From Deltaproteobacteria bacterium (lineage in GTDB: Bacteria > Desulfobacterota > Binatia > Binatales > Binataceae), in assembly GCA_003161515.1 (NCBI GenBank), contig PMOH01000323.1, positions 1-35,130 of the forward strand: a DNA stretch of 35,130 nt, given 5' to 3'. The notes under the pieces are model-generated. The model saw only the letters and a program-made list of their open reading frames with translations, ran no database searches and was not told the origin of the DNA. The translations under genes were made by a program, and so were the position numbers. The first letter of the stretch is position 1, and each line of letters begins with the position of its first letter. This document shows positions 9,710 through 32,560 of this stretch, piece after piece.

Positions 9710-11059
9710 ATGCGGCGCATCCTCGCCTCCCTCATCTTAATCACAACTTTTGCGATTGTGGCCGCTACCGCACGCGCCGACTCATCGACCCCGGCCACGA
9801 CGTTAGCCACTTCGACGCCGCCCGCAACTGTTCCGACATCGTCGTCGTTCTCGTTGCTGGACCCCGGCACCTGGAGCATGCCGCATTACGACTGGCAATC
9901 ATTCAAAATCCAGGATCCCAACTCGTGGCCGTTCATCCCGGTGCCGGAAGTCGCGACCGACCCCAACGGCGGAGTCACTTACGGCGTGCTCCCGGTCTGG
10001 CTCTTCACCGACGACAAGAACGAGATCACCAGCATCTTTGCGCCCGATATCAACTCCAACAGCACGCTCGGACCGGGCGGCAACTTCCGGTACCTGGCCT
10101 ATCCCTCATCGGATACGAATTGGTATGCGGTCGCTGGTGCGCAGGAGACGATCGCGCGCGACGTCGATATCGATTATCAAACCGGGCGTCAGCACAAGAA
10201 GTGGTGGTCGTTCGAGGGCCGCTTCTTTTTCGAAAAAGATCCGACCGAGCGCTTCTTCGGAACCGGCAATCATTCTCACGAGGGAAACCAGAGCAACTAC
10301 ACGACCAAGCAAATCTACGGAGAGGCGATTTTCGGCATAAACTTCAGCGACCGGCTGCAGCTCTCGATGATGGAACGTCCGCGCTACGTGCGAATCGAGG
10401 ACGGCGGCTTCACTTCGGTGCCGTCAATCTTCAAGGAGTTCCCGCATGTGAAGGGCCTCAACGGGGGCAGCGAAGTTCTGTCGCAGTGGATGCTGCAATA
10501 CGACTCGCGCGACTCGGTGGATATCCCGCGCGCGGGCACGCTCGCCCGCGCCTATTACGGTGTTGCGGATCGGCGATTCGGCAGCTCGATTTCGTACAAC
10601 CGCTTTGGCGGAGAGCTGCGCCAGTACTACACCGTCGGAGAGCGCATCACGTTTGCCGGTCACGTATTTAACGAATACCAGCCGGTCAACGGCGAGATTC
10701 CATTCTGGTCGCAGGCGCGGCTGGGCGGCGACGAGAGCTTGCTGACCGATCAGGAAACCCTGCGCGGCTACGGCGCCGGCCGCTTCATCGACAACAACCT
10801 GTTCGTGATGAACGTCGAGATGCGCACGCGAGTGTGGGACAAGACCATCTTCGGCACCCACGGCATCTTCGAGCTGGCGCCGTTCGCCGAAGCCGGACGC
10901 GTCGCGCACAATTTGAGCTTCAACCCCTTCTCGGAGCTGCACCCGGTCGGCGGCATTGGCCTTCGCGCGATCGCGGAACCGTTCGTCGTCGGCTTCGTTG
11001 ACGTCGGATGGGGTGGCGAAGGCGCCGCCGTCTTCTCCGGCATCAACTATCCATTCTGA
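9710..11059 (+). CDS. Omp85/BamA-family outer-membrane beta-barrel protein without recognisable POTRA domains, 449 aa
   Basis: Signal peptide MRRILASLILITTFAIVAATARA, then a Ser/Thr/Pro-rich stretch. Barrel motifs typical of the bacterial surface antigen domain: LRGYGAGRF, NVEMR, GIGLRA. Terminal aromatic residue (..GINYPF). Confidence 0.8.
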   Translation: MRRILASLILITTFAIVAATARADSSTPATTLATSTPPATVPTSSSFSLLDPGTWSMPHYDWQSFKIQDPNSWPFIPVPEVATDPNGGVTYGVLPVWLFTDDKNEITSIFAPDINSNSTLGPGGNFRYLAYPSSDTNWYAVAGAQETIARDVDIDYQTGRQHKKWWSFEGRFFFEKDPTERFFGTGNHSHEGNQSNYTTKQIYGEAIFGINFSDRLQLSMMERPRYVRIEDGGFTSVPSIFKEFPHVKGLNGGSEVLSQWMLQYDSRDSVDIPRAGTLARAYYGVADRRFGSSISYNRFGGELRQYYTVGERITFAGHVFNEYQPVNGEIPFWSQARLGGDESLLTDQETLRGYGAGRFIDNNLFVMNVEMRTRVWDKTIFGTHGIFELAPFAEAGRVAHNLSFNPFSELHPVGGIGLRAIAEPFVVGFVDVGWGGEGAAVFSGINYPF

Positions 11060-11062
11060 TCG

Positions 11063-11102
11063 CGAACTCGACTACGAATTGCCCGAAGAGCTGATTGCGC
11101 AG
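11063..11102 (+). repeat. Orphan copy of the queA 5' coding end (left copy of a 40-bp direct repeat)
   Basis: 38 of 40 nt identical to 16709-16748 inside queA. Both mismatches (11084, 11090) are third-codon positions, so it still encodes ELDYELPEELIAQ. There is no start codon, and it begins 4 nt after the Omp85-like stop. Confidence 0.85.
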
Positions 11103-11117
11103 ATCCTGGAACGGCTC

Positions 11118-11139
11118 GGCAGGCACGGGCTTGCCTGCC
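11118..11139 (-). terminator. Stem-loop downstream of the giant secreted-protein gene
   Basis: GGCAGGCA (11118-11125) / TGCCTGCC (11132-11139) with a 6-nt loop, about 20 nt beyond the stop at 11161 on the minus strand. No clear U-tract. Confidence 0.35.
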
Positions 11140-11160
11140 CGTGATAGACGCGCGCTCCAG

Positions 11161-14100
11161 CTAAGGCCCAGTCCCCGTGAGCGCGATATTATGCGGACTC
11201 GTCGGATCGCTCCCGACGCTAACCGCAATACTGGCGCTCTCCGCCGATGGCCCCGCCGTCGGCGTGAACGTAATCGCGATCGTGCACGTCGAATTCGCCG
11301 CCATCGTACCGCCGCCGCACGTCCCGCCCGTCACCGCGAAGTCGCCCGCGTTCGGCCCCGTAGTGCTGCTCTCGCTAACCGGCAGCGCAAATGCCGACAG
11401 ATTAGTCACCGTGATGTCTTTCGTCTTCGTCGGCGTCCTTGCCGTCAGCGTGCCGAATGCCAGCGTACTCGCCGGGATCACCGTCGCCGGAATATTCTCC
11501 GCGGTGGTTAACGGAACCATATACGGCCCCAGCGTATCTGGGCTGTCCGCAACCGTCATCAGCGCCGACTCCGTCCCCAGCTGGGTCGGAGCGTAGGTGA
11601 CAATCAGTGTGCAAATCGATTTCGCCGCCAGCGTCGATGCTGGTGTCAGCGTCAGGCAAGTCCCGCCCGTGACGCTGAAATCTGATGCGTTCGGTCCGCT
11701 GAACCCCGGCGGCAGCGTCAGCGTGACCGCATTCGTCTGGAAATTGTGCACCACGAACGTCTTCAGCCTCGTGGATCCAATCTTCACGCTGCCGAATGCG
11801 TAGCCCATCGGCGCAACCGTCATGTCCGCTACGCCGGTGCCGCTTGCCGCCACGCTCTGCGGACTGCTCGACGCGTTGTCATTGACCGACAACGTCGCGC
11901 TATGCGGGCCGAGTGCGCTCGGCGTGAACCCGATCGCGATCGTGCAGGTGGCCAGATGCGCAAGTCCGCCGCCCGGGCACGTAGTCGCGCCCGTCGCCGC
12001 AAATTCAGGATCGTTCGATGTCACGTTGCCGACGAACAGCAGGTTCGCGCCGGTATTCTTCACCGTGATGTTCTTGGTTGCTTCGTCCCCGACCGGAACG
12101 TTGCCGAACGCGAGCGAAGCCGTCACCGTCAGCGTGGTCGTTGGCGTCGCGGTCGCAGTCGGTGTCGCCGTTGAGGTTGCACTCGCCGTGGCGGTCGCTG
12201 TCGCAGTATTCGTCGCCGTCGCGGTCGCCGTCGCCGTGTTAGTCGCCGTCGCGGTCGCCGTGTTCGTCGCAGTTGCGGTTGCGGTAGCTGTGTTCGTCGC
12301 GGTTGCGGTAGCTGTCGCGGTCGCAGTCGCGGTTGCGGTTGCGGTAGCTGTTGCGGTCGCTGTTGCGGTCGCGGTCGCCGTCGCCGTGGCAGTAGGAGTC
12401 GCGGTCTTGGTGGCGGTTGCGGTCGGCGTCGGGGTCGGCGCAGGCGCGCCCAAAGCGTAGAAGGCGCTGGACGCGCTTAAGAAGCCCTGCACCGCGCCGA
12501 AGTAAACGGTCCCATCGGCGCCGATCGCCGACGAAATTGACGCTATCTGTCCGCCCGAAAATACTTTCTCCCACTTCTTGGTGACGTCGCTTGGACCACC
12601 GTCGGTTAACGCGTAGTAGTCGCCGTTATCGTTGCCGACGAAAATGGTCCCGTCGCCGCCAACAACTGGCGCGGTCGCGACCTCATTGCCGGTCGCGAAT
12701 GCCCACTTCTTTGCCGCGCTGGCGCCGTTGTCAGTCAGCGCGACGACGTTGCCATTAAAGTCGCCAAAGTAAATGGTCCCGTCAGCGCCGATCGCTAATG
12801 CGGTCGACACATTGCCGCCGGCTGAGTCTGAGTAAACCCAATTCTGCGTGGGGGGAGTGCCCGAAGCGGGCATGCAGGTGGGGCAATAGGGACCGTTGTC
12901 AGTCACCGAGGCGATGTAGACAGAGTTGCTGACGTAGTAAATCGTCCCGTTGGCGCCGATCGACGGATTCCCCATCAATATCGCGTTAGGGATAGCCCAT
13001 TTCTCAACCGGGCAGGTGTAAGGGCTTCCGTTGTTTGGGCAGGTCGTGACTGTATTGGCCTCGATCGCGTAGTTCTCGATGTATATCGTGCTGCCGTCGG
13101 CGCTCAGCGCCGCATTTCCTGAAACCCCACGGAACTCCCACTTCTCTGCGGCAGTGCCAGCTCCGGTGCATGCGGCGACCGGGCTCCCGACACCGGTGCA
13201 CTCGACGACCGCCTGGAGTTCATTGTCAGCTCCTATGTAAATGGTCCCGTCGGGCCCGACCAGCGGTGATCCGCCGCCCGCCCCTAGATTTTCGCCTTCG
13301 AACGCCCACTTCAGGGTGCCGTCGGCAATGTTTAGCGCGTAGAGGTGGGCACCGGCGACGAAGTAGATCGTGTTGCCGTCGTTGCTGATCGCCGGCGAGC
13401 CTATCGGCGTATCGGAGGTGGCTAATGTGTACTCCCACTTCTGCGTGCCGTTGGGATTTAGAGCGAAGAACTGGAGGTTACCAACCGCGTGATTACCGAA
13501 GTAAATGATCCCGTTCGCGTCGATTACCGGCGCGACCAGCAAAAATCCACTCGGGGTTGAGACCGACCACTTAACCGCGCCCGTGTTGGTGCTGGTGTCG
13601 AACGGGCTTCGGCCCCTGCGCGCGTTATTGTATTGAAACGTCGGCCATACAGCCTGACTGACATCCACGTTCACGGGTTGCGATGGAATGCCGTTTGCGA
13701 TGACCTTCATCGTGACCGAACCCAGCAGCGATGTGACCGCCGGTACATCGAATTTAGTCGAGACCGGTGCGCTGCCCGTCGCGACTCCCATAGTGCTGTG
13801 GTCGTGAGTACGGAAATAAGAGACTTGTCCCGCGTTGTTGGTCACCTGCACCAATGGATAGTTAGTAGCACCCTGGTAGTCGTCTCCGTAGCCAACTGCC
13901 TGCGACAGGCCGTTGAACTGCGTGCCGGTCAGTTGGTAGGTCTTGCCGGGAGTCACCTGGACCGGGAAGTTGGTGATGGTCGGCTCCCATGCCGGATTGT
14001 AAGTACCCGCGGGCGTGTAGATCTCGACATCGCTGGTACCATCGGTCCACAGAACCTGGCCGCTGGGGAGCGGCAGCAGGCGCCCATTGAACGCTGGCTC

Positions 14101-15339
14101 ATTGGCCGCATTGGGAGGCGCGGCCACCGGCGTCAGGCTGGCCCCATCGAACTCGAAAAATTCGGCTACCCGTGACGTACAGCTGCCGTCCACCGGCGAA
14201 ACCGCCATCAGCACGTTGCCATCGGTAAGCAGCGCCGCCGGTGCATCCTCCGCAGCTAATTGCTCCGTCGTGTTGGTACAACTTCCGACAGTGATCGTGA
14301 TAGTCGGGAAACCGGGACCGGGGCTCCACAGACCGGTGATCGTGTCGTAAATGTCGTTGAAGCCGGTCGCTCCTTCATCGAAGAGGGTGCCGTCGGGACG
14401 CAATATGGCCGGTCCGATTTCGTCAGCCGAGATGTCGACCAAGGGATCCGGCGCGGTCCCGGTAACCTCCCAGTCCTGCTCGACCGGGTTATAAACCAGG
14501 GCCGGAGTTTCGGTAGTGTCAAGCGAGTTGTGATTCTGCATGGTCAGGACTTCGCCGTTAGGCAGCAGCGTCCACCCTTCCTCGTCATTGCCATGGTCTT
14601 CAGCGGACTTCCCCGGAGGGGTGAAAGGCGGGTTAAAAGTGGGCGGGTTCGTGTTGACGTCTAATGTGGCGACGTCAAAACCGAAGTCATCCGCGACCAT
14701 AAAGGTTCCGTCGTCCAGAACCACCGACGCGGCATCGCCTATCTTGGTCCATCCTGTGGGAGCCGTGATGCATGTCCAATTGTTGTGGACCGGATCGTAA
14801 ATAGCGCCTTGGTCGGTCCAGACCGTACCGCCAGTATTGCCTCCCATTGAATCGTAGTTGTAGTTGTATTCGCCGCCGACCATTACGAACCGGCCATCGG
14901 GCAAGACCGCCGACGCGTAGAACAGCGGGGAGTAAACCGTGTCCGCGGAAAAGTTGCCATTGGGGCAATTTGATGGCGCCGCCACCTGGCTCCATTGTCC
15001 ATTTATATAGCTGCCGGAATTGTCGGGGGTCAGCGTCCACCAGGCGACGTTAAGCAGGTTTCTATCTTCGGCCAGAATTCTGCCGTCGGTGAGCACGAAT
15101 ACGCTCTGGGGACCAAATGACGGCTGATTATTCAGCGGTGTCCAGGTGCCCGAGATTGCGCCGGGCGCGCCGAACCCACCAGAAACCTGCTCCGAAGGAT
15201 GCGGATGCGGCACCGGCTGCGCCAATTGTGCCTGCACCAGCCGCGGATTGTTCAACACCACAATCGCCAGTATCGCCAACCCAGCCGAGCCCAGGATCGC
15301 GATCGCGCCGACCCGCACTCTCCCCCACGATGCCTTCAT
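11161..15339 (-). CDS. Giant secreted/cell-surface protein, ~1392 aa
   Basis: The ATG at 15339 lies 6 nt downstream of GAGGAGG; a GTG at 15345 is also in frame. Domain order: (1) hydrophobic N-terminus VGAIAILGSAGLAILAIVVL. (2) A kelch/galactose-oxidase-like propeller ending in an E-set-type segment (PAWEPTITNFPVQVTPGKTYQLTG...NGIPSQPVNV). (3) About 8 repeats of the D-G-T-I-Y-F/I-G + KW type, as in PQQ/BamB-like propellers. (4) A ~105-aa (TA)n linker. (5) Three ~95-aa Ig-like repeats (LAFGNVPVGDEATKNITVKNTG...C..I..FTP...SGTG). Confidence 0.85.
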   Translation of the reverse strand: MKASWGRVRVGAIAILGSAGLAILAIVVLNNPRLVQAQLAQPVPHPHPSEQVSGGFGAPGAISGTWTPLNNQPSFGPQSVFVLTDGRILAEDRNLLNVAWWTLTPDNSGSYINGQWSQVAAPSNCPNGNFSADTVYSPLFYASAVLPDGRFVMVGGEYNYNYDSMGGNTGGTVWTDQGAIYDPVHNNWTCITAPTGWTKIGDAASVVLDDGTFMVADDFGFDVATLDVNTNPPTFNPPFTPPGKSAEDHGNDEEGWTLLPNGEVLTMQNHNSLDTTETPALVYNPVEQDWEVTGTAPDPLVDISADEIGPAILRPDGTLFDEGATGFNDIYDTITGLWSPGPGFPTITITVGSCTNTTEQLAAEDAPAALLTDGNVLMAVSPVDGSCTSRVAEFFEFDGASLTPVAAPPNAANEPAFNGRLLPLPSGQVLWTDGTSDVEIYTPAGTYNPAWEPTITNFPVQVTPGKTYQLTGTQFNGLSQAVGYGDDYQGATNYPLVQVTNNAGQVSYFRTHDHSTMGVATGSAPVSTKFDVPAVTSLLGSVTMKVIANGIPSQPVNVDVSQAVWPTFQYNNARRGRSPFDTSTNTGAVKWSVSTPSGFLLVAPVIDANGIIYFGNHAVGNLQFFALNPNGTQKWEYTLATSDTPIGSPAISNDGNTIYFVAGAHLYALNIADGTLKWAFEGENLGAGGGSPLVGPDGTIYIGADNELQAVVECTGVGSPVAACTGAGTAAEKWEFRGVSGNAALSADGSTIYIENYAIEANTVTTCPNNGSPYTCPVEKWAIPNAILMGNPSIGANGTIYYVSNSVYIASVTDNGPYCPTCMPASGTPPTQNWVYSDSAGGNVSTALAIGADGTIYFGDFNGNVVALTDNGASAAKKWAFATGNEVATAPVVGGDGTIFVGNDNGDYYALTDGGPSDVTKKWEKVFSGGQIASISSAIGADGTVYFGAVQGFLSASSAFYALGAPAPTPTPTATATKTATPTATATATATATATATATATATATATATATATATNTATATATATNTATATATNTATATATATNTATATATASATSTATPTATATPTTTLTVTASLAFGNVPVGDEATKNITVKNTGANLLFVGNVTSNDPEFAATGATTCPGGGLAHLATCTIAIGFTPSALGPHSATLSVNDNASSSPQSVAASGTGVADMTVAPMGYAFGSVKIGSTRLKTFVVHNFQTNAVTLTLPPGFSGPNASDFSVTGGTCLTLTPASTLAAKSICTLIVTYAPTQLGTESALMTVADSPDTLGPYMVPLTTAENIPATVIPASTLAFGTLTARTPTKTKDITVTNLSAFALPVSESSTTGPNAGDFAVTGGTCGGGTMAANSTCTIAITFTPTAGPSAESASIAVSVGSDPTSPHNIALTGTGP
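12137..12452 (-). repeat. Coding low-complexity tandem repeat: (Thr-Ala)n with periodic Asn/Pro, 6-nt periodicity
   Basis: The plus strand reads GTCGCn/GTTGCG hexamers almost without interruption. It translates on the minus strand to PTPTPTATATKTATPTATATATATAT...TNTATATATATNTATATAT. ATNTATATAT-type higher-order units recur 4 times. Confidence 0.9.
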
Positions 15340-15469
15340 CAGCACCCTCCTCGACGAGACTCACTGATCATGGAACCCCCTGCGATGCTGGTGAAGGCGA
15401 ACTAATTGCTGTGCCAAGGCCCATCTCCACCCGTCGTGGACGATAACGACGAGTCAGATTTCGCGGCAA

Positions 15470-15485
15470 TACGTAGTTTGACGTA
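15470..15485 (+). promoter_or_regulatory. Candidate operator/-35 element TACGTAGTTTGACGTA upstream of the LuxR-type regulator gene
   Basis: Inverted half-sites TACGT/ACGTA flank a 6-nt spacer, and TTGACG (15478-15483) is -35-like with CACAAT 18 nt downstream. A near-identical 16-mer sits in the same orientation upstream of the paralogous regulator (30400-30415). Confidence 0.3.
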
Positions 15486-15539
15486 TATGCGACTTAAGGC
15501 GCACAATCCGCGTGGCTGATCCGGGACCCGGGGGGATTC

Positions 15540-16613
15540 ATGTACCGCTACACGCGCAATGACTTCGATCGCGTGCTTGAGTTCGTCAGAGGCCTCTATG
15601 AGCCTCGAAGCCTTGGCGCGTTCAGCGACCATTTGCTCTCCTCACTCCGCACGCTCGTCCCCTCCGTGTTCAATGGCGTAGTATCGGTTGAAGTCAGGAA
15701 TGCTCAGCAGGCCTGGACCACGCGCACCAACCCCCCTGAGTTTGTCTCCCCGGAACTTGACGAAATTGCCACGCGCCATGTGCCTGAGAGCGCGATCTTC
15801 AGCCACTTCGAGCGCACTGGTTGTCAGCAATTCACGCGATGGTCCGACATACAGCCATTGTCACAATTTCTGCGCACTGCGCTTTACAACGATGTGTATC
15901 ACCAGTTGGGGGTCAAAGATTGTTGCTCATTGATCTCGCACTCCAGTCCCACTCGGCTCGAAATCGTAGGAGTCACTCTGCACAAGCAGATTCCCGATGC
16001 GCACCGGGACGTCCTCGTCTCGATTTCGCCGCACTTGCGCCAGGCCTTTCGCCTCGCGCATACCAGCTCGGCGCTAATCGAAATGGCGGCCATGAAAAGC
16101 GGTCCGAATGGCTCCGAACGCGGCATCGTGGCGATCGACCCGGACGGTACCATCACGATGGAAACCCCGGGCGCGACCAGATCGCTAGAGAAGTTTTTCC
16201 CGAAACGAACCGCACGAGGCTTGCCCGAGCCGTTGGCCCAGTGGATATCGCAATCGGACGACACGCTTCGAAAGTCCACCGACGTTCCGAAGGTTCGGCG
16301 TCCGTTTGTGATCGAGCAGCCTGGCAACCGCCTGACCGTCCATCTGCTCTCCAGGCCCGCGCAGAATTTCCTGCTGTTCGAAGAACGTCCGTGGGCGATC
16401 GATCCCGCCGCTCTCGCAAGTCTTCCGTTGACCCATCGTGAGTCAGAAATCCTGGCCTACGTCGCAGCCGGCAAAACCAATTTCGAGATTGGGATTATCC
16501 TCGGCATCAGTTCGCGCACCGTCGAGAAACACATCGAGCACATCCTGGATAGCCTCGGCGTCGAAACCCGCACCGCCGCCGCCGCATCCGCCCTCGAAGC
16601 CGCCAACCTATGA
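15540..16613 (+). CDS. LuxR/FixJ-type HTH transcriptional regulator with a long uncharacterised N-terminal sensor-like domain, 357 aa
   Basis: C-terminal LuxR HTH LTHRESEILAYVAAGKTNFEIGIILGISSRTVEKHIEHILDSLGVETRTAAAA. No receiver or autoinducer-binding motif recognised in the N-terminal ~290 aa. Divergent from the giant gene. Paralogue of 29281..30366. Confidence 0.85.
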   Translation: MYRYTRNDFDRVLEFVRGLYEPRSLGAFSDHLLSSLRTLVPSVFNGVVSVEVRNAQQAWTTRTNPPEFVSPELDEIATRHVPESAIFSHFERTGCQQFTRWSDIQPLSQFLRTALYNDVYHQLGVKDCCSLISHSSPTRLEIVGVTLHKQIPDAHRDVLVSISPHLRQAFRLAHTSSALIEMAAMKSGPNGSERGIVAIDPDGTITMETPGATRSLEKFFPKRTARGLPEPLAQWISQSDDTLRKSTDVPKVRRPFVIEQPGNRLTVHLLSRPAQNFLLFEERPWAIDPAALASLPLTHRESEILAYVAAGKTNFEIGIILGISSRTVEKHIEHILDSLGVETRTAAAASALEAANL

Positions 16614-26779: not shown

Positions 26780-26965
26780 GCCCTATTCGTCTCCTCGTTT
26801 GAGTTAAGCGTGGCGCAGCGATAGCTAAGTGGCTGCCATGTGCGATTAGTCCAGCCCTCGGGCGCTTCCCAACGTTGCGAAGGTGAATAGCGAGACTGGC
26901 GTTTCGAGCCCGCCGGGGGACTGATTCGCGCAGGAGTGTGCGCTCTGTCCAGGGAGGGACCAGAG

Positions 26966-27742
26966 ATGAAACGGAAGCTATCAGCAGTAGTGTTTTTTGC
27001 GGCGGCGGCGATGCTCGCGTGCGCCGCATCGGCGGGCGCGGTGGACGGCACCATCGAGATCAACCAGGCGAAGGTGCTGGCGGGGAGCGGGTTTCCCTAC
27101 TTTATCACCAGCAGCGGAAGCTACCGCCTTACCGGCAATCTCACAGTTTCGGCGGCTTTCGACGCAATCGATGTGACAGCGAACAACGTCACCATCGATT
27201 TGAACGGGTTCTCGATTGTCGGAGCCGGCGGTGGTTTCGGAATTAATGCGTCAGGAAATAACGACGTTACGGTGGAAAACGGGGCGGTCACCGGATTCAC
27301 CAATGGTGTTGACGTGGGAACCTCCGGCATCGTCAGAAACGTGCACGCCGATGGGAACACAGGTGGCATCTTTGGAGGGAACAACACCGTGATCGAAGGT
27401 TGCACGGCAAACAGCTCTACTACATTCAACGGAATAACCTGCGCCGCGGGGTGTGCGATCTCGGGCAATACGGCCAACGGCAATGCTGGCGTCGGCATTA
27501 ATTCCGGCAACGGGTCCGTGATTTCCGGCAATACTGCGTTCCACAACACCAGCAACGCGGGTATCAACTGCTTCGGGAGCGGATGTCTGATCACCGGCAA
27601 TACTGCTTTCAACAACAGCATTGGCATCGCCGCAAGTGATGGAACTACTGGCTACGCAGGGAATGTGCTGGACCAAACCACGAACGTCGGGGGGGGGACC
27701 AACCTCGGCCACAATCTCTGTAGCGGAACCATCTGTCCGTAG
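26966..27742 (+). CDS. Secreted right-handed parallel beta-helix repeat protein, 258 aa
   Basis: The ATG at 26966 is preceded by AGGGAGGGA. Signal peptide MKRKLSAVVFFAAAAMLACAASAGA. About 22-aa turns recur with I-x-G-N-T-A-x-x-N (ISGNTANGN, ISGNTAFHN, ITGNTAFNN). Confidence 0.75.
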   Translation: MKRKLSAVVFFAAAAMLACAASAGAVDGTIEINQAKVLAGSGFPYFITSSGSYRLTGNLTVSAAFDAIDVTANNVTIDLNGFSIVGAGGGFGINASGNNDVTVENGAVTGFTNGVDVGTSGIVRNVHADGNTGGIFGGNNTVIEGCTANSSTTFNGITCAAGCAISGNTANGNAGVGINSGNGSVISGNTAFHNTSNAGINCFGSGCLITGNTAFNNSIGIAASDGTTGYAGNVLDQTTNVGGGTNLGHNLCSGTICP

Positions 27743-27824
27743 CGGAACCACTTGCTGAGGCTTGCGAAGGCGCGAAGTGCTCTCCTATCGAAAAGTTCGA
27801 CACCCGGCATCGCTTGGCGGCCAT

Positions 27825-29258
27825 ATGCGGTTTGTCGCGAGCAACCTCGCGATGCTGGTGGCGGCGATCTTGATAACCGTCGCGCCCGCTGCGGCGCAGA
27901 CCGCTTTGAGCATGATCTGCGTCTCGCCCGACATCACCGTGGCTCTAACCAGCGGAACCATCACGCCCCAAATGGTGCAATGCTACTCATTTCCGTCTGG
28001 CACGGCGGCGATCAACTTTGTCGGAATCCCGGCGGGGGTTAACGTCACCGGATATTTTCCTGAGAGCGCTTCGCAGATCCTGCTGACGATCGATACCACG
28101 TACGCACTGCCGACGGACGGCAGCGGAGATACAGTGACTGTGACTCCGCGCGACGTCGCTTCGTATTCTCCGTCCACCGGCTTTTTCTCGTCGGCGCTCT
28201 TCTTCACGGGCGAGAGCTTCAGCATCCCCGACGGCGTTCGGATCGACGCGCTCGGAAAGAACTCGTTGGGACATCTGCTGCTCTCATTCGATGTGACTTT
28301 CAGTTTACCGAAGACGGGCGGGGGAATGCTGACAGTCAAACCGGCTGATATCGTGTCGTTTGACGGCGCCGGCTATTCGCTGGTTTTCGACAGCGCCGCA
28401 GCCGGCATCGCCGACGGAACGAACCTCGATGGCGCCACGATGCTGCCCAATGCCGATCTGTTGATAGCGTTCGATGAGTTCGGCTCGATCGGTGGGGTCA
28501 ACTTCGCGCCGGAAGAAGTGCTGGAGTTCAATCCTGGCGCCAGCAGTTGGGTGCTGTCCTTCGACGGAATCGTCCGCGACAATTGGCCCGACGGCAGTAT
28601 CATTCAGGGCGTCTATGCACAGGTGCCAGCGACCGCGACTTCAACTCCAACCGCGACCGCGACAGCCACTGCCTCCGCGACATCGACCGCGACCAGGACT
28701 GCAACGCCGACCGCAACTGCGACATCAACCGGCGGGACTCCTACTGCTACCTCAACAAAGACTGCTACACCGACGGCTACCAAGACGGCGACGGCTACAG
28801 CAACCGCGACATCAACCGGCGGGACTCCTACTGCGACCGCGACCGCAACTAGGACGGCGACGGCAACTGCGACGTCGACCGGCGGAACTGCGACTGCGAC
28901 GCCGACTGCCACGCCTACTCCGGTGCCGGTGACGCTCAAGATCAAACCGAAGTCGCTCAAGTTTTCGAAGACCACGGTTGGCACGACGAGCAAGCCGAAA
29001 AAGGTTAAGGTGTCGAATCCCAAAGGCAAGAAGAAGCATCCGGGGTTTCCGGTGTTGATCGAATTGATTTCCGATGCGGGTCCAGGAGTGTTCATGCAGA
29101 CGAACAACTGTCCCGCGAGTCTGTCGGCCGGCTCCTCTTGTTCAATCTCGGTGACGTTCACTCCGAGCGCAGCCACCAAGCAGACCGGAACGCTGACGAT
29201 TACCGACAACGGGAAGGGTGGTATGCAGAAGGTGCCGCTGAGCGGGACCGGGAAATAA
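27825..29258 (+). CDS. Secreted protein: orphan three-repeat N-terminal domain + Thr/Ala/Pro linker + terminal Ig-like domain, 477 aa
   Basis: The ATG at 27825 gives signal peptide MRFVASNLAMLVAAILITVAPAAAQ. The linker spans 28627-28925. The terminal domain LKFSKTTVGTTSKPKKVKVSN...CPASLSAGSSCSISVTFTPSA...LTITDN...VPLSGTGK is homologous to the C-termini of the GH30 and giant proteins. Confidence 0.75.
   Translation: MRFVASNLAMLVAAILITVAPAAAQTALSMICVSPDITVALTSGTITPQMVQCYSFPSGTAAINFVGIPAGVNVTGYFPESASQILLTIDTTYALPTDGSGDTVTVTPRDVASYSPSTGFFSSALFFTGESFSIPDGVRIDALGKNSLGHLLLSFDVTFSLPKTGGGMLTVKPADIVSFDGAGYSLVFDSAAAGIADGTNLDGATMLPNADLLIAFDEFGSIGGVNFAPEEVLEFNPGASSWVLSFDGIVRDNWPDGSIIQGVYAQVPATATSTPTATATATASATSTATRTATPTATATSTGGTPTATSTKTATPTATKTATATATATSTGGTPTATATATRTATATATSTGGTATATPTATPTPVPVTLKIKPKSLKFSKTTVGTTSKPKKVKVSNPKGKKKHPGFPVLIELISDAGPGVFMQTNNCPASLSAGSSCSISVTFTPSAATKQTGTLTITDNGKGGMQKVPLSGTGK
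28627..28925 (+). repeat. Coding Thr/Ala/Pro low-complexity linker with three STGGT(P/A)TAT units
   Basis: ATATSTPTATATATASATSTATRTATPTATATSTGGTPTATSTKTATPTATKTATATATATSTGGTPTATATATRTATATATSTGGTATATPTATPTP. ACn-GCn periodicity is visible in the DNA. Confidence 0.85.
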
Positions 29259-29280: not shown

Positions 29281-30366
29281 TTAAGAATCGCGCATTGCGG
29301 ACCATGCGATTGCGGCCGCGGCGGTGCGGGTTTCGACGCCGAGTTTCCGGTGGATGCGCTCAACATGCTTGTCCACGGTCTTTCGCGTGATCGACAAAAT
29401 CGCCGCCGTCTCGCGGCTGGTCTTGCCCTTCGCGATCCAAAACAACACTTCGGCTTCGCGCCGTGAGAGGCCCAGTTGGCGCAGCGATTCCGGAGAATCT
29501 TGTCCCACTTCGCGGCTCAGCAATAGCAGGACCTCGTCGGGCCGCCTCGTCGTGAGCATCCGGATGTTCAGGCGCGCCCCTTCTGATTCCACCGTCAACG
29601 GGGAGCACGGCCGGACACCTGATTGTTTGCCGTCCGCTGACGTTTGCCAAAAACGAACCCATCGCAGAAGGAGATCCGGCAGCTTGTGATTCGGTTCCAG
29701 ATCGTCGCGGAAGAAGCTCGACAACCATCGGATCGCGGAACTGCTCGCGTGTTTGATCGTCAGGTTATGAACGACCACGACCGCAGAATTTACCGCTTCT
29801 TCGAGCGCTTGTTCGCGGCACTCGAGTTCGCTCCGGACCGTAGTCATTGCCTCGGCGTTCGCGTATGCCTGCTGCAGATGTGGGCGCAACTGATTGAGCA
29901 GATCGCGCTCGTCTTCGGTGAAGTCCATCGTCTCTCGGCCGAAGGCCAGCGTCACGATATCGCCGGCCGCTGACACCTCGAATCCGCCCGTCATCAGGTA
30001 TTCGACTCGCGCCGGCCAATACACCACGTCGTAGAGCTCGAGCCGATGAAACTGCCGCTGCGAAAGAAGGTCCGACATCTTCAGCGCGCGCTGATCGGTA
30101 TTGCGGTTGTGCAGGACCATCGGATGGTGATGCATCAGACGCGCGAGGGTTTCGTCCGCGTCAGGAACGCGCGCCCCAAGGGAAGGGGTCGCGAAGCTCT
30201 CGAACCGACGGCGCGAAAAGTTGGTTTCATTGAAACCGCATGAATCCGCGCTAATCAGCCGCGGGAGCAGTCCAATCACATGCCTTGGGAAGCTGTCGAG
30301 CGTTTGCGCCGAATATAACTCCGGCAGCAGACGCGCCAACTTTTCGTATTGCACCCGTTCGGTCAT
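29281..30366 (-). CDS. LuxR/FixJ-type HTH regulator, paralogue of 15540..16613, 361 aa
   Basis: C-terminal LSRREAEVLFWIAKGKTSRETAAILSITRKTVDKHVERIHRKLGVETRTAAAA. The N-terminal domain is collinear with the other regulator (ELYSAQTLDSFPRHVIGLLPRLI versus GLYEPRSLGAFSDHLLSSLRTLV; LRPHLQQAY versus ISPHLRQAF). Divergent from the GH30 gene. Confidence 0.85.
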   Translation of the reverse strand: MTERVQYEKLARLLPELYSAQTLDSFPRHVIGLLPRLISADSCGFNETNFSRRRFESFATPSLGARVPDADETLARLMHHHPMVLHNRNTDQRALKMSDLLSQRQFHRLELYDVVYWPARVEYLMTGGFEVSAAGDIVTLAFGRETMDFTEDERDLLNQLRPHLQQAYANAEAMTTVRSELECREQALEEAVNSAVVVVHNLTIKHASSSAIRWLSSFFRDDLEPNHKLPDLLLRWVRFWQTSADGKQSGVRPCSPLTVESEGARLNIRMLTTRRPDEVLLLLSREVGQDSPESLRQLGLSRREAEVLFWIAKGKTSRETAAILSITRKTVDKHVERIHRKLGVETRTAAAAIAWSAMRDS

Positions 30367-30524: not shown

Positions 30525-32444
30525 ATGAGGGAGCGAATGAAGAGGTATTTAGGAAAATACATGACCATGGCGATTGTGCCAACTACGGCCCCAGCGCTGG
30601 TGAATTCCGCGATGGAGCGGTCTAGCAAGAAACCGGGCTTGTTTCTGACCCTCGTAGCGGCCCTCGTCCTATCATTTTCCGGATTTGGCAGTGCGCATGC
30701 GGAAACGGCAACGATCGACTGGACGAATGTTCACCAGATTATCGACGGCTTCGGCGCATCGGATACGTTCGCCGGCCCGCTCACATCGGCGAACCAGGCT
30801 TTCTTCTTTGGGACGGGGAGCGGACAGCTTGGTCTGTCCATACTGAGAACAGGAGTTCCAGACAACAGCGAGGTTGCCGGAAGCTGCACAACGGTTAGCG
30901 TAGGGTGTGCGGGTCCGTATGTCAGTGATATGAAGGCGGCCATTGCCAATGGAGCAATAATCTATAGCTCTCCCTGGACGCCGCCACCTGCCTACAAAAC
31001 AAACGGTCTCGGCACATGCACCAGCAGTGCTGGGTTGATAACTTCGGATTACGCTGCCTATGCAACCTGGCTTGCTAACTATGTCAAAAGTTTGCAAACG
31101 GAAGAGGGCATTACTCTCTACGCGTTATCGGTCCAGAATGAGCCAAACATATGCCTTAGCTACGATTCCGCTGTCTGGACGGCGGCCGAGATCGATACGT
31201 TCGTAGCGACCAACCTGGGTCCCACCTTTGCCGGGGATGGGCTGTCTACTCTCATCTACGTGCCAGAGGGCAGCGGCTACAACGAGATGAGTCTGGGTAG
31301 TACCTGCGCCACCGACTCGTCTTGCAACAAATACATCGGCGGCGTCGTTTGGCATGACTACGATGCCAACCTTGCCGGCTCAAACACAATTGCAGCGGAT
31401 ATTTACCCTGCCGACTGGCCTGAGGGAAAGAAATATTGGCAGACAGAAGCTTCTTGTGGCTCCGGTTTTGGGCCGAATTTTTGTCAATCGGGCTTTAACA
31501 CCGATATCACAGATGCGCTTGACTGGGCCGCAGTCATCGACCAGCGAATCGCCGTCGACGATGCAAATGCGTGGCTATACTGGTGGCTGGTCGGTCTGGA
31601 TAGCACCGATGACCAAGCGTTGGTGAACAGCAGTGGCACTATCGCAAAGCGGGCCTACATGCTGGGGCAGTACAGCAAATTTGTACGGCCGGGATATTCC
31701 CGGATAGATGCGACGCACCTTCCAGCAACAGGAGTTAGCGCCTCGGCCTACCAAAACACCGCCACTGGTTCTCTGGTCATCATCGCGACCAACTACAGTG
31801 GTTCTGACGTCTCCCAGGACTTCGCTGTAACCAACGCTCCCGCATTTTCGAGCGTGACTCCGTACACTACCTCTGCGAGTTTGAGTCTCGCCAAACAAGC
31901 GAATGTAGCGGTGTCATCGAATTCGTTTACCTATAAATTGCCGGCGGACAGCATCACGACACTTACCTCTTCGGCCTCCACGGGCGCCACTCCAACTCCG
32001 ACAGCAACCGCGACGCCTACTCCGACGGCAACCTCGACCGCTGCAACTCCAACTCCCACGGCGACGGCATCGGCAACTCCGACTGCCACGCCGACTCCTG
32101 TCGGGATGGTGTCGATCAAGCCAACTTCGGTGAATTTTGGAACGAAGACGGCCGTCGGAAAAACCAGCAAGCCAAAAACGGTTATCGTCAAAAATGATGG
32201 CAACAAAAATGGGGGGCTGGCCGTCACCATCGAGATGGAGAGCGCGTCCCCGTCGGTGTTCGCGGTGAAGTCGCAATGCAAGAAGACGCTCAGCCCGGGC
32301 AAGAGCTGCAAGGTGTCAGTGACCTTCAAGCCGGTGGATGATACGACGGCTGAGACTGGCAAGCTTATGATTTTCGACAACGCGAGTGGCTCGCCACAGT
32401 CAGTGCCGCTCTCCGGAACCGGAAAGGCCGCCAAGAAAAAATAG
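30525..32444 (+). CDS. Secreted glycoside hydrolase family 30-like enzyme + Thr/Ala/Pro linker + terminal Ig-like domain, up to 639 aa
   Basis: GH30 hallmarks: IDGFGASDTF; LSVQNEPN (acid/base Glu); YWQTEAS (nucleophile Glu); beta-sandwich tail YMLGQYSKFVRPGY. The signal peptide follows the Met at 30612 (MERSSKKPGLFLTLVAALVLSFSGFGSAHA). ATGs at 30525, 30537 and 30612 are all possible starts. The C-terminal domain is VNFGTKTAVGKTSKPKTVIVKN...CKVSVTFKP...VPLSGTGKAAKKK. Confidence 0.85.
   Translation: MRERMKRYLGKYMTMAIVPTTAPALVNSAMERSSKKPGLFLTLVAALVLSFSGFGSAHAETATIDWTNVHQIIDGFGASDTFAGPLTSANQAFFFGTGSGQLGLSILRTGVPDNSEVAGSCTTVSVGCAGPYVSDMKAAIANGAIIYSSPWTPPPAYKTNGLGTCTSSAGLITSDYAAYATWLANYVKSLQTEEGITLYALSVQNEPNICLSYDSAVWTAAEIDTFVATNLGPTFAGDGLSTLIYVPEGSGYNEMSLGSTCATDSSCNKYIGGVVWHDYDANLAGSNTIAADIYPADWPEGKKYWQTEASCGSGFGPNFCQSGFNTDITDALDWAAVIDQRIAVDDANAWLYWWLVGLDSTDDQALVNSSGTIAKRAYMLGQYSKFVRPGYSRIDATHLPATGVSASAYQNTATGSLVIIATNYSGSDVSQDFAVTNAPAFSSVTPYTTSASLSLAKQANVAVSSNSFTYKLPADSITTLTSSASTGATPTPTATATPTPTATSTAATPTPTATASATPTATPTPVGMVSIKPTSVNFGTKTAVGKTSKPKTVIVKNDGNKNGGLAVTIEMESASPSVFAVKSQCKKTLSPGKSCKVSVTFKPVDDTTAETGKLMIFDNASGSPQSVPLSGTGKAAKKK
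31969..32103 (+). repeat. Coding Thr/Ala/Pro low-complexity linker
   Basis: SSASTGATPTPTATATPTPTATSTAATPTPTATASATPTATPTP. Same compositional type as the linkers in the other two secreted proteins. Confidence 0.85.
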
Positions 32445-32520
32445 AACGGCGCATAACGGCCCTCACGATGTGACCTTCACGGGACACTGGCTCATAGCCG
32501 CAACCTTCCAGATGACGAAA

Positions 32521-32560
32521 CCGCCGGAGCGAATCAATCGCTCCGGCGGTTCAATTTTCT
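32521..32560 (+). terminator. Rho-independent terminator after the GH30 gene
   Basis: Perfect 12-bp stem CCGCCGGAGCGA (32521-32532) / TCGCTCCGGCGG (32538-32549) with a 5-nt loop, followed by TTCAATTTTCT. Confidence 0.75.

What the first reader, a model, noticed from the sequence alone, without database searches (positions are those of the whole stretch)
28927..29258. Shared Thr/Ala/Pro linker plus terminal ~95-aa Ig-like domain on three unrelated exported proteins: candidate sorting or anchoring tag
The same pattern ends three proteins: [LV]xF..t.vG.tSk.k.v.V.N.G...(~25 aa)...C...L..G.sC.i.VtF.P....(~10)..L.i.DN....pq.v.LSGTG. It ends the 477-aa protein (28927-29258) and the GH30 enzyme (32107-32444), and it occurs three times at the end of the giant protein (11164-12125). 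In every case a T/A/P low-complexity spacer precedes it. The N-terminal cargo domains are unrelated: an orphan repeat domain, a GH30 domain, and kelch plus PQQ-like propellers. The fold pattern resembles ASH / 'choice-of-anchor D'-type Ig domains. Here, however, it is the extreme C-terminus and no PEP-CTERM, LPXTG or other known anchor follows. A conserved terminal beta-sandwich behind a flexible spacer is also how type IX secretion CTDs are organised. It could therefore be a secretion or cell-surface-attachment signal rather than a passive spacer.
Basis: partly seen in the sequence, partly recalled or inferred. Interest (0 to 1): 0.75.

Follow-up and report, generated by a model that had tools for sequence, protein, structure and literature searches.

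The report
Lysine-rich C-terminal Ig tag in Binatia
Two of the three proteins end in a lysine-rich version of a known immunoglobulin-like domain, held on a floppy Thr/Ala/Pro stalk, which soil bacteria of the Binatia lineage attach to the very end of many unrelated exported proteins, so it is probably a shared address or attachment tag rather than a passive spacer.

Summary
All three proteins end in choice-of-anchor-D / ASH (PapD-like Ig) domains behind T/A/P linkers. NF012200 scores 56, 47 and 115 bits against a cut-off of 45.

The three cases are not equivalent:
- The 477-aa protein and the GH30 enzyme carry a special subtype: net charge +8 to +14, pI about 10, 15-17 Lys.
- The giant protein's three copies are ordinary acidic tandem repeats (pI 4.8, 26-32% identity to the tag).

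The superfamily as a whole is mostly an internal tandem repeat. There are 76,435 representative proteins, and the top 150 carry 8-62 copies each.

The basic subtype behaves like a tag. In 33 loci plus the window, 36 of 36 basic copies are at the extreme C-terminus, and nearly all sit behind a T/A/P stalk. In 32 of 36 the last residue is Lys. They sit on at least 8 unrelated cargo families.

Tags are 76-80% identical whatever the cargo or genome (dN/dS about 0.26), and tag and cargo histories are decoupled. Distant homologues of the 477-aa protein's cargo end in IPTL-CTERM or PEP-CTERM-like signals instead.

There is no T9SS-CTD homology. Whether the tag anchors or sorts remains unresolved. I favour non-covalent docking.

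The parts
27825..27896 (+). Signal-peptide-like N-terminus of the 477-aa protein (MRFVASNLAMLVAAILITVAPAAA|Q)
   Evidence: Read directly from the translation. A basic-plus-hydrophobic N-terminus heuristic is positive.
27897..28625 (+). Cargo of the 477-aa protein: a small all-beta repeat domain with beta-propeller-like blades; not an orphan
   Evidence: There are 30 homologues. The AF2 model has pLDDT 95.4 and pTM 0.90. The best Foldseek PDB matches are kelch and designed propellers, but only locally (E 2e-6, TM 0.3-0.4, rmsd about 10 A).
28626..28928 (+). T/A/P-rich low-complexity stalk of the 477-aa protein (about 100 aa)
   Evidence: Composition scan. Tandem DNA repeat at 28680-28838, period 87.
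28929..29258 (+). A-type basic terminal choice-of-anchor-D / ASH Ig-like domain (109 aa, 17 Lys, net charge +14, pI 10.3), ending ...LSGTGK followed directly by the stop codon
   Evidence: NF012200 scores 56.2 bits in the whole protein and 63.9 bits for the domain alone, against a cut-off of 45. ASH scores 36.5 and 42 bits against 27. Charge. AF2 model: pLDDT 88.5, seven strands. Foldseek finds ASH/PapD-like Ig folds.
30525..31955 (+). Signal peptide plus GH30-type glycosidase cargo (XynC-like; below the equivalog cut-off)
   Evidence: NF052681 E = 1.8e-59 over aa 57-481. PF14587 is a weak hit below its cut-off and PF17189 only just reaches its own.
31956..32099 (+). T/A/P stalk of the GH30 protein (about 50 aa)
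   Evidence: Composition scan.
32100..32444 (+). B-type basic terminal choice-of-anchor-D / ASH / VesB-like Ig domain (net charge +8, pI 9.7, 15 Lys) with an AAKKK tail and the stop codon
   Evidence: NF012200 scores 47.2 and 52.2 bits. PF22544 scores 29.8 and 34.2 bits against a cut-off of 25.5. Charge. Close relatives L030-L033 are all terminal and basic.
11164..12141 (-). Three tandem acidic choice-of-anchor-D copies ending the 1394-aa giant protein. These are generic repeats, not the basic tag
   Evidence: NF012200 scores 114.7 bits over 3 stretches. pI 4.8-4.9, charge -2 to -3. 26-32% identity to tag A.
12142..12450 (-). T/A-rich stalk of the giant protein
   Evidence: Composition scan. 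Tandem DNA repeat at 12146-12437, period 6, 48.7 copies.
29281..30366 (-). LuxR/GerE-family regulator, divergent from the GH30-tag gene. Context only; a regulatory link is inferred
   Evidence: GerE domain. A 79% homologue in L030 is likewise divergent from a B-tagged gene that carries different cargo.
15540..16613 (+). Second LuxR/GerE-family regulator (27% identical to the first), divergent from the giant protein gene. Context only
   Evidence: GerE domain. A 55% homologue in L021 is divergent from an A-tagged beta-helix gene.

Best explanation
The segment 28929-29258, and its counterpart at 32100-32444, encode a lysine-rich, strictly C-terminal subtype of the choice-of-anchor-D / ASH (PapD-like Ig) domain. 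Together with the repetitive T/A/P stalk in front of it, it forms a portable 3' module.

Bacteria of the Binatia lineage put this module on many unrelated exported proteins. These proteins have signal-peptide-like N-termini, and some have twin-arginine-like motifs. The cargo includes beta-propellers, beta-helices and a GH30 glycosidase.

The module sits where PEP-CTERM-like or IPTL-CTERM signals sit in homologous cargo from other lineages. It therefore most likely gives all these proteins a common fate after export.

The mechanism I favour is non-covalent docking. The folded basic Ig domain, including its conserved loop SNPKGKKKHPG, would bind a conserved anionic envelope or matrix component, or a specific surface receptor. 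The 30- to about 590-residue stalk would hold the cargo out on a tether.

Shown: the domain's identity and fold, its terminal position, its charge, its conservation, the diversity of cargo, module shuffling, and anchor substitution in homologues. Inferred: export beyond the inner membrane, the binding partner, and retention of the tag in the mature protein.

The giant protein's three copies are ordinary acidic structural repeats and are not part of this tag system.
For: Identity and fold:
- NF012200 and ASH score above their curated cut-offs.
- The AF2 model has pLDDT 88.5. Its best Foldseek matches are HYDIN, CEP192 and CFAP ASH domains, and VesC.

Position and charge:
- 36 of 36 copies with charge >= +6 are terminal. 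Non-basic copies in the same DNA are 5 terminal and 20 internal (Fisher p = 8.5e-12, not corrected for relatedness).
- Of the 36, 33 have a T/A/P-rich stretch (at least 0.72 T/A/P) in the 40 residues upstream; the other three score 0.33-0.57.
- 32 of 36 end in Lys and 2 in Arg.
- In 2,718 copies from 150 giant proteins the mean charge is -2.6 (sd 3.2), and only 0.2% reach +6.

Cargo:
- Families seen are choice-of-anchor-Q beta-helix, NHL, DUF7948+SBBP, PQQ-like, GH30, a small propeller-like repeat domain, a Cys-rich protein, and an unknown.
- Each genome has at least 5-7 tagged genes, often in tandem arrays.

Conservation:
- A-type tags are 76-80% identical regardless of genome or cargo.
- Median dN/dS is 0.26. 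Cargo pairs are often only 31-65% identical.

Shuffling:
- Cargo dS is 0.13-0.14 with tag dS 0.51-0.69 for L003/L014 and L012/L017.
- The reverse holds for L004/L007.
- L007 and L008 have identical cargo but stalks of 45 and 107 aa.

Anchor substitution:
- Distant homologues of the window's cargo end in IPTL-CTERM (P0294: TIGR04174 24.8 bits against a cut-off of 20.5), or in VPEP + hydrophobic stretch + basic residues (P0295, P0298, by eye only).

Features pointing to a tether and a specific partner:
- Stalks are long and of variable length, as expected of a tether rather than a cleaved signal.
- Two conserved tag classes (A and B, about 50% identical) coexist in one genome, which suggests specific partners.
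Against: - No binding partner, receptor or machinery gene was found in about 20 kb around each of 27 loci. The recurrent neighbours are a histidine kinase, a sigma-54 activator and an ABC ATPase.
- Whole genomes could not be scanned.
- There is no experimental localisation, and Binatia are uncultured.
- A purely electrostatic binder would not need 76-80% identity across the whole domain. A transient recognition step by a secretion machine would fit the conservation equally well.
- The position statistics are inflated by ascertainment: most loci were found by similarity to a terminal tag. They are also inflated by shared ancestry. Only 8 tagged genes were found unselected in the flanks, though all 8 are terminal.
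- Signal peptides were judged by a crude heuristic, which was positive for 25 of 36.
Confidence: 0.45

Rival explanations
1. Outer-membrane secretion signal. The folded terminal Ig domain would be the feature that a secretion machine recognises in the periplasm. The machine would be a type II system via GspC, as for VesB, or an undescribed translocon. The tag may or may not be removed afterwards.
For: - The VesB Ig-fold belongs to PF22544. The B-type tag passes that model (29.8 and 34.2 bits against 25.5).
- VesC is a Foldseek match (E 3.7e-4), and VesB is a weak sequence match (E 0.036).
- Strict C-terminal position, high conservation and two tag classes parallel the T9SS type A and type B CTDs (the parallel rests on my own knowledge).
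- Fibrobacter has a basic terminal domain on many CAZymes (PMC3079729).
Against: - No T9SS-CTD homology.
- Known T2SS substrates share no common tag.
- Stalks of 100 to about 590 residues are unnecessary for a recognition signal.
- No gsp or other machinery genes lie in the flanks.
- The A-type tag does not pass PF22544 (15.6 bits).
Confidence: 0.25
2. Substrate- or matrix-binding module, CBM-like. The basic Ig domain would target enzymes and lectin-like propellers to anionic external polymers (uronic-acid polysaccharides, humic material, eDNA) or to mineral surfaces, in the way cellulases use a PT linker plus a CBM.
For: - The layout of catalytic domain, Pro/Thr linker and terminal beta-sandwich is the classic CAZyme arrangement (my own knowledge). 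One cargo is GH30.
- Extreme positive charge, and a KGKKKH loop resembling polyanion-binding motifs.
Against: - No CBM family hit in Pfam or NCBIfam at E <= 10. The Foldseek top hits are ASH domains, not CBMs.
- Position is strict, unlike CBMs.
- Most cargo is non-enzymatic propellers or beta-helices, which in other lineages carry cell-surface sorting signals.
- Few aromatic residues are available for a sugar-binding platform (read from the sequence).
Confidence: 0.15
3. Covalent tethering through the C-terminal lysine. As with Braun's lipoprotein, an L,D-transpeptidase would link the epsilon-amino group of the last Lys to peptidoglycan, or another enzyme would link it to a different acceptor, fixing the cargo on its stalk.
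For: - 32 of 36 tags end in Lys even when the tail is extended (..GPK..AAK..KSK..KKK).
- Lys follows the final G.G in only 1% of 2,102 internal copies.
- The Lpp precedent rests on my own knowledge.
Against: - The terminal Lys may simply be part of the overall Lys richness. Two tags end in Arg and two in Asn.
- No L,D-transpeptidase was seen nearby.
- A glycosidase and long stalks are hard to reconcile with a periplasmic, peptidoglycan-bound location.
Confidence: 0.06
4. No address function. The terminal domain would be a passive structural or stabilising Ig module, inherited together with a recombination-prone linker. Its terminal position would only reflect how the 3' cassette spreads.
For: - The superfamily is overwhelmingly a structural tandem repeat.
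- Linker DNA is repetitive and recombinogenic, and modules are clearly shuffled.
Against: - Purifying selection (dN/dS 0.26) and 76-80% identity across unrelated cargo exceed cargo conservation.
- Charge is an extreme, subtype-specific outlier.
- Known sorting signals replace the tag in homologues.
Confidence: 0.05

Closest known systems
Choice-of-anchor D domain (NCBIfam NF012200) / ASH domain (Pfam PF15780), PapD-like Ig fold
   Same: All five copies in the window pass the curated cut-offs as part of their proteins. They share the two conserved Cys, the VTF.P motif and the seven-strand beta-sandwich. The best structural matches are HYDIN, CEP192 and CFAP ASH domains.
   Different: Typical members are acidic, internal and tandem (8-62 copies). 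By the family's naming logic they lie upstream of a separate anchor (my own knowledge of the NCBIfam description). Here a single strongly basic copy is itself the last element of the protein, behind a long stalk, with nothing after it.
VesB/VesC C-terminal Ig-fold of Vibrio cholerae type II secretion substrates (PF22544; PDB 4LK4, 6BQM)
   Same: Same Pfam family for the B-type tag. Structurally similar (VesC E 3.7e-4). It lies C-terminal to an unrelated catalytic cargo. It has been shown experimentally to carry transferable secretion information.
   Different: The VesB Ig-fold is followed by a GlyGly-CTERM rhombosortase signal. It is packed against the protease rather than held on a long stalk, and it is not Lys-rich or shared by many cargo families. 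Sequence similarity is marginal (E 0.036).
Type IX secretion C-terminal domains (type A TIGR04183, type B TIGR04131)
   Same: A folded beta-sandwich of about 100 aa at the extreme C-terminus of many unrelated exported proteins, with two coexisting classes.
   Different: No sequence or specific structural match. The lineage is Binatota, not Bacteroidota/FCB. These tags are far more conserved (76-80% identity) than T9SS CTDs usually are (my own knowledge). Long T/A/P stalks precede them.
Dockerin modules of cellulosomal enzymes
   Same: The logic is the same: a well-conserved terminal module behind a Pro/Thr linker on dozens of different cargo proteins in one organism, which docks them to a common partner. 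More than one specificity class can coexist.
   Different: The fold is unrelated: a calcium-binding helical duplicated segment versus an all-beta Ig domain. No cohesin-like partner has been identified here. This is a comparison of how it works only, from my own knowledge.
PEP-CTERM / IPTL-CTERM tripartite sorting signals
   Same: They occupy the same position on homologous cargo. P0294 (IPTL-CTERM, HMM-confirmed) and P0295 and P0298 (VPEP + hydrophobic + basic, by eye) are 35-41% identical to the window's cargo.
   Different: Those are short motif + transmembrane helix + basic cluster signals, processed by dedicated sortase-like enzymes. The window's tag is a folded soluble domain with no hydrophobic helix.
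Basic terminal domain (BTD / FPm-1) of Fibrobacter succinogenes CAZymes
   Same: A basic, lineage-specific C-terminal module on many secreted enzymes (PMC3079729).
   Different: No sequence relationship was tested or shown. The BTD is not known to be an ASH/Ig domain.

Membership tests
Choice-of-anchor D (NF012200) / ASH (PF15780) | Profile score above the curated cut-off | tested here: met
   NF012200: 56.2, 47.2 and 114.7 bits against a cut-off of 45. ASH: 36.5, 31.1 and 47.8 bits against 27. Domains alone score 63.9 and 52.2 bits.
Choice-of-anchor D (NF012200) / ASH (PF15780) | PapD-like / MSP-type seven-strand Ig beta-sandwich | tested here: met
   The AF2 model has pLDDT 88.5, pTM 0.80 and 7 strands. 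Foldseek matches the HYDIN PapD-like domains 2ys4 and 2e6j, and CEP192 6fvi and 7ptb, with TM 0.66-0.78.
Choice-of-anchor D (NF012200) / ASH (PF15780) | Usual context: a separate C-terminal anchor (PEP-CTERM, LPXTG, T9SS tail, etc.) follows the domain. This is the naming logic of the family, from my own knowledge. | tested here: not met
   The stop codon comes 0-7 residues after the domain in 36 of 36 basic copies. No anchor model matches at E <= 10.
T9SS C-terminal domain (type A / type B) | Match to TIGR04183 / PF18962 or TIGR04131 | tested here: not met
   No such hit at E <= 10 in NCBIfam or Pfam for either tag. HMMER's filters may hide very weak matches.
T9SS C-terminal domain (type A / type B) | Extreme C-terminal beta-sandwich on many unrelated exported proteins | tested here: met
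   36 of 36 are terminal, on at least 8 cargo families.
T9SS C-terminal domain (type A / type B) | T9SS machinery (PorK/L/M/N, Sov, PorU/V) in the genome; cleavage by PorU | not testable with these tools
   Only about 20 kb per locus was available, and no machinery genes were seen in the flanks. The lineage is Binatota.
PEP-CTERM / IPTL-CTERM / GlyGly-CTERM / LPXTG tripartite signals | Short motif, then a hydrophobic transmembrane helix, then a basic cluster at the C-terminus | tested here: not met
   The tags end ...LSGTGK or ...GKAAKKK with no hydrophobic segment. No model hit.
VesB-like Ig-fold carrying a T2SS signal (PF22544) | Profile score above the PF22544 cut-off | tested here: inconclusive
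   The B-type tag scores 29.8 and 34.2 bits against 25.5 (met). The A-type tag scores 15.6 bits (not met). Foldseek VesC E 3.7e-4. VesB by sequence E 0.036.
VesB-like Ig-fold carrying a T2SS signal (PF22544) | Dependence on a T2SS (GspC PDZ domain) for export | not testable with these tools
   This needs whole genomes and experiments. The precedent comes only from PMC12369372.
Carbohydrate-binding module | Homology to a CBM family | tested here: not met
   No CBM model at E <= 10. No CBM among the best Foldseek matches. The sialidase entries at ranks 30-45 are multi-domain chains matched with TMq 0.54-0.58, and the aligned region was not identified.
Carbohydrate-binding module | No strict positional constraint within the protein | tested here: not met
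   The basic subtype is terminal in 36 of 36 cases.
Dockerin | Duplicated calcium-binding helical segment | tested here: not met
   The model is all-beta. There is no dockerin hit.

The most novel reading that the evidence does not exclude
Binatia would have a previously undescribed folded-domain address system with two tag classes (A and B). Each class would be read by a dedicated partner.

One possibility is an outer-membrane translocon or attachment complex, analogous to T9SS type A and type B CTD handling. The other is a cohesin/dockerin-like display system, in which the basic terminal Ig tag docks onto the acidic tandem choice-of-anchor-D repeats of giant scaffold proteins such as the 1394-aa protein in this window.

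My evidence does not exclude either. Tag conservation, the two coexisting classes, module shuffling and anchor substitution all fit. No partner has been identified.
Probability: 0.15. Interest if true: 0.8.

Novelty: new variant of a known kind. Interest (0 to 1): 0.58.

Why it matters
C-terminal sorting and anchoring signals define the surface proteome of bacteria. Examples are LPXTG, PEP-CTERM and the T9SS CTD. Each was first recognised in the way seen here: a conserved terminal element shared by unrelated exported proteins.

Binatia are abundant, uncultured soil and peat bacteria whose cell surface is unknown. A recognisable tag gives three things:
- a one-step way to list their displayed or secreted proteins from genomes;
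- a handle for finding the cognate partner by phylogenetic profiling;
- a case where a domain normally used as a structural repeat was re-purposed as the terminal address itself.

The tag also corrects annotation. Gene callers often split these genes at the repetitive linker, leaving about 110-aa 'hypothetical proteins'.

Tried and rejected
- **T9SS CTD, PEP-CTERM, LPXTG, GlyGly-CTERM, dockerin and CBM membership.** Profile scans at E <= 10 and Foldseek gave nothing beyond the ASH / choice-of-anchor-D clan.
- **Using search for homologous proteins with the domain to measure positional bias.** Every hit was under 200 aa. They were fragments starting in or after the linker, or cut by contig ends, so the result could not be used for position. 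I used the representative search and fetched loci instead.
- **Exact look-up of the GH30 protein.** It is not on record, so the source contig was not identified. The best relative is MAG MFD10064.bin.1.24 (L002), which is 88-94% identical in DNA over syntenic stretches.
- **Concerted evolution as the cause of tag conservation.** Rejected. Tags within one genome are barely more alike (79.6%) than tags between genomes (76.3%). Median dS is 0.53, which is not near zero.
- **Conserved neighbouring machinery.** The recurrent neighbour families are a HAMP histidine kinase, a sigma-54 activator, an ABC ATPase and a NUDIX/NrtR regulator. No secretion or sortase-like genes appeared. Several 'families' were antisense ORFs of the linkers.
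- **The Omp85-like gene next to the giant protein as a dedicated translocon.** It is convergent with the giant protein gene. Its adjacency is explained by synteny around a variable slot. Not pursued further.
- **Literature.** No paper treats choice-of-anchor D as a terminal tag, and none was found on Binatia secretion.
Full report
**What is in the window**

Three ORFs match the finding:
- Protein A, 27762-29258 (+). The likely start is Met22, giving 477 aa.
- Protein B, 30525-32444 (+), 639 aa, GH30-like.
- Protein C, 11161-15345 (-), 1394 aa.

Each has a hydrophobic, signal-like N-terminus and a long T/A/P-rich stretch, followed by one (A, B) or three (C) copies of a beta-rich domain of about 105 aa. 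The linker DNA is itself a tandem repeat.

**Is the similarity real, and what is the domain?**

- A versus B: 50% identity, BLASTP E = 2e-25.
- A versus the three C copies: E = 2e-8, 1e-4 and 0.002.
- All three proteins pass the curated cut-offs of NCBIfam NF012200 (choice-of-anchor D; 56, 47 and 115 bits against 45) and Pfam ASH PF15780. B and C also pass PF22544 (HYDIN/CFA65/VesB-like Ig).
- An AlphaFold model of tag A has pLDDT 88.5 and pTM 0.80 and is a seven-strand sandwich.
- Its best PDB matches are the PapD-like ASH domains of HYDIN, CEP192 and the CFAP proteins, and the Ig-fold of the Vibrio protease VesC. No T9SS CTD appears in the top 50.
- A profile search of PDB sequences agrees, with VesB at E 0.036.
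- No PEP-CTERM, LPXTG, GlyGly-CTERM, T9SS-tail, CBM or dockerin model matches either tag, even at E <= 10.

**The superfamily is not a terminal tag**

A profile of the five copies finds 76,435 representative proteins at E <= 1e-3. The best 150 are proteins of 1,043-7,259 aa with 8-62 matched stretches each. In these I delineated 2,822 copies, mostly internal. Their mean net charge is -2.6 (sd 3.2), and only 0.2% reach +6.

**A and B belong to a distinct subtype that does behave like a tag**

- Tags A and B have net charge +14 and +8, pI 10.3 and 9.7, and 17 and 15 lysines.
- The giant protein's three copies have charge -2 to -3 and pI 4.8-4.9. They are generic tandem repeats, and two of them are internal.

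Searching species-representative genomes with tag A returned 28 loci.
- The 21 loci at 67-90% identity all come from soil MAGs labelled 'uncultured delta proteobacterium' or Candidatus Binatus, with several loci per genome.
- P0087, annotated Candidatus Binatus, closely resembles the end of protein C. The lineage is Binatota.
- In 19 of those 21 loci, plus L023 at 47% identity, an intact ORF has the stop codon 0-6 residues after the domain and a T/A/P stretch of 30 to about 590 residues before it.
- L011 is broken at the linker but still ends 3 residues after the domain, and L016 is frameshifted.
- The more distant matches (35-50% identity; one more MAG labelled delta proteobacterium, Acidobacteriota, Proteobacteria) are mostly internal.

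Searching metagenomes with tag B gave the same picture.
- The four close relatives (63-79% identity) are terminal, basic (+8 to +12) and behind a T/A/P stalk.
- Forty-four distant matches are mostly internal, acidic or neutral, and have no such stalk.

A six-frame census with a subtype HMM over 33 loci plus the window gave this split:

| Copy type | Terminal | Internal |
|---|---|---|
| Basic (charge >= +6) | 36 | 0 |
| Non-basic | 5 | 20 |

- Fisher p = 8.5e-12, not corrected for relatedness or for how the loci were found.
- Thirty-three of the 36 basic copies have at least 0.72 T/A/P in the 40 residues upstream; the other three score 0.33-0.57.
- Eight of the 36 were unselected extra genes in the flanks. 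Tagged genes often lie in tandem arrays, for example three in a row in L015.
- The last residue is Lys in 32 of 36 and Arg in 2. Twenty-four end exactly G.G-K-stop. Lys follows the final G.G in only 1% of 2,102 internal copies.
- Even among the giant proteins, the seven copies with charge >= +5 all lie within the last 260 residues or so.

**Cargo**

The tagged proteins fall into unrelated families:
- a right-handed beta-helix family carrying a choice-of-anchor-Q domain (NF041518; 51-52 bits against 25);
- NHL propellers;
- DUF7948 + SBBP propellers;
- PQQ/BamB-like propellers;
- a Cys-rich protein;
- an unknown protein;
- GH30 (protein B);
- the cargo of protein A.

Protein A's cargo is not an orphan. 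It has 30 homologues. It folds with pLDDT 95.4 into an all-beta repeat structure. Its best PDB matches are kelch and designed beta-propellers, but the superposition is poor (TM 0.3-0.4, rmsd about 10 A), so 'propeller-like' is only a lead.

**Conservation and shuffling**

- A-type tags are 76-80% identical whether they come from the same or different genomes (79.6% against 76.3%) and from the same or different cargo families (78.9% against 75.9%).
- Median dN is 0.14, median dS 0.53 and dN/dS 0.26.
- Cargo of the same family is often only 31-65% identical.
- Tag and cargo histories are decoupled:

| Pair | Cargo dS | Tag dS |
|---|---|---|
| L003/L014 | 0.13 | 0.51 |
| L012/L017 | 0.14 | 0.69 |
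| L004/L007 | 1.03 | 0.32 |

- L007 and L008 have identical cargo but stalks of 45 and 107 residues.
- Concerted evolution within genomes therefore does not explain the conservation. Purifying selection on a shared function, combined with recombination in the repetitive linker, does.

**Anchor substitution**

The close homologues of protein A's cargo whose C-termini are recorded carry the stalk and the A-tag, for example P0277. The distant ones (35-41% identity, about 300 aa) end differently:
- P0294 has an IPTL-CTERM signal (TIGR04174 24.8 bits against 20.5).
- P0296 ends FPALS + hydrophobic helix + basic tail.
- P0295 and P0298 end VPEP + hydrophobic helix + basic tail. These are PEP-CTERM by eye only, with no HMM hit.

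The beta-helix cargo carries a domain (choice-of-anchor Q) whose family is defined by the same behaviour. The tag thus occupies the slot that known cell-surface sorting signals occupy elsewhere.

**Mechanism**

What is shown:
- It is a folded, disulfide-capable domain, with two invariant Cys.
- It is strongly basic and strictly terminal.
- It is under selection independently of its cargo.
- It is spread by module shuffling.
- It comes in two coexisting classes, A and B: both in the window, and both in L004.

What is inferred is its partner.

I favour non-covalent docking to a conserved envelope or matrix component, with the stalk as a tether. The reasons are these:
- The stalks are long and variable in length.
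- The charge is extreme and carried by Lys in a 59% GC genome.
- A Lys-rich loop (SNPKGKKKHPG) is inserted relative to generic copies and is almost invariant.
- The cargo is of the kind displayed on surfaces.

The main rival is recognition by an outer-membrane secretion machine. A 2025 study shows that the homologous VesB Ig-fold carries EpsC-PDZ-dependent type II secretion information that can be transferred to beta-lactamase (PMC12369372). High whole-domain conservation and two tag classes would also suit a machine-recognition step.

A CBM-like role, covalent linkage through the terminal Lys, and a passive spacer are less likely. The reasons are given under the rivals.

No machinery was found in the flanks. 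Whole genomes could not be scanned.

**Context in the window**

- Each tagged or repeat-terminated gene has a divergent LuxR/GerE regulator beside it (15540-16613 and 29281-30366).
- A 79% homologue of the second regulator sits divergently beside a B-tagged gene with different cargo in L030. A 55% homologue of the first sits beside an A-tagged beta-helix gene in L021.
- The slot between the Omp85-like gene (9710-11059) and queA is variable among close relatives. It holds protein C plus a LuxR gene here, an SBBP A-tagged gene in L002 (88-94% DNA identity in the flanks), and a PQQ A-like-tagged gene in L023.

**Verdict**

The domain is a known family. Its use as a lysine-rich, stalk-borne, strictly terminal module on many cargo proteins in Binatia is, as far as the libraries and literature searched show, undescribed.

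I file it as a new variant of a known kind.

Noticed in passing
window 27897-28625; P0290-P0299: The 'orphan' cargo of the 477-aa protein belongs to a family of about 300-aa all-beta repeat proteins with kelch-like local matches. In other lineages these end in IPTL-CTERM, PEP-CTERM-like signals, or an extra domain of about 90 aa. An IPTL-CTERM homologue (P0294) gives a weak sub-threshold hit to the 'choice-of-anchor Z' repeat (NF058597, 17.9 bits against 30).
   Followed up: partly
window 9710-16613 versus L002 6391-10349 and L023 4649-10709: The slot between the Omp85-like gene and queA is a variable island among close relatives. It holds the giant protein plus a LuxR gene here, a DUF7948/SBBP A-tagged gene in L002, and a PQQ-propeller A-like-tagged gene in L023. 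The flanks are 80-94% identical in DNA.
   Followed up: partly
window 15540-16613 (+) and 29281-30366 (-): Two paralogous LuxR/GerE regulators (27% identical, each with an uncharacterised N-terminal part of about 290 aa) lie divergent from the giant protein gene and the GH30-tag gene. Homologues in L021 (55%) and L030 (79%) are also divergent from tagged genes with different cargo.
   Followed up: partly
L003, L013, L014, L015, L017 (N-termini of beta-helix cargo): Many beta-helix family members have RRFAL, RRFAF or RRFAV directly before the hydrophobic region. This looks like a twin-arginine (Tat) motif, so this cargo may be exported already folded.
   Followed up: no
window 9710-11059 (+): An Omp85-superfamily protein of 449 aa with a short T/P/S-rich stretch near its N-terminus and no POTRA hit. 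It is convergent with the giant protein gene and is conserved at 95% in L002 and 79% in L023.
   Followed up: partly
window 26936-27742 (+): A small secreted beta-helix protein with a clear signal peptide, ending ...SGTICP with no stalk and no tag, lies 20 bp upstream of the 477-aa protein's ORF. Not every exported protein here is tagged, and the two genes may form an operon.
   Followed up: no
L001 5970-10324; P0027-P0120 fragments: Gene callers and assemblies often break these genes at the repetitive linker. In L001 a frameshift splits a DUF7948/SBBP protein from its stalk and tag. This leaves many 'hypothetical proteins' of about 107-114 aa that are just the tag.
   Followed up: yes
L006, L011, L013, L014, L015, L018 flanks: Arrays of tagged beta-helix genes recur next to a HAMP histidine kinase, a sigma-54-dependent response regulator and an ABC ATPase. 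This hints at regulation by a two-component system and sigma-54.
   Followed up: partly
P0184, P0199, P0254, P0171, P0234 (giant repeat proteins from the representative search): Among 2,718 generic copies, the seven with charge >= +5 all lie within the last 260 residues or so of their proteins. A basic last copy may be a wider trend beyond Binatia.
   Followed up: partly
window 824-2578 and 3304-4524: A KaiC-like double-domain ATPase and a PAS histidine kinase lie at the left end of the window. They appear unrelated to the finding.
   Followed up: no
window 32519-32551 (+): A strong terminator-like hairpin (14-bp stem followed by a T-run) lies 75 bp after the stop codon of the GH30-tag gene.
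   Followed up: no
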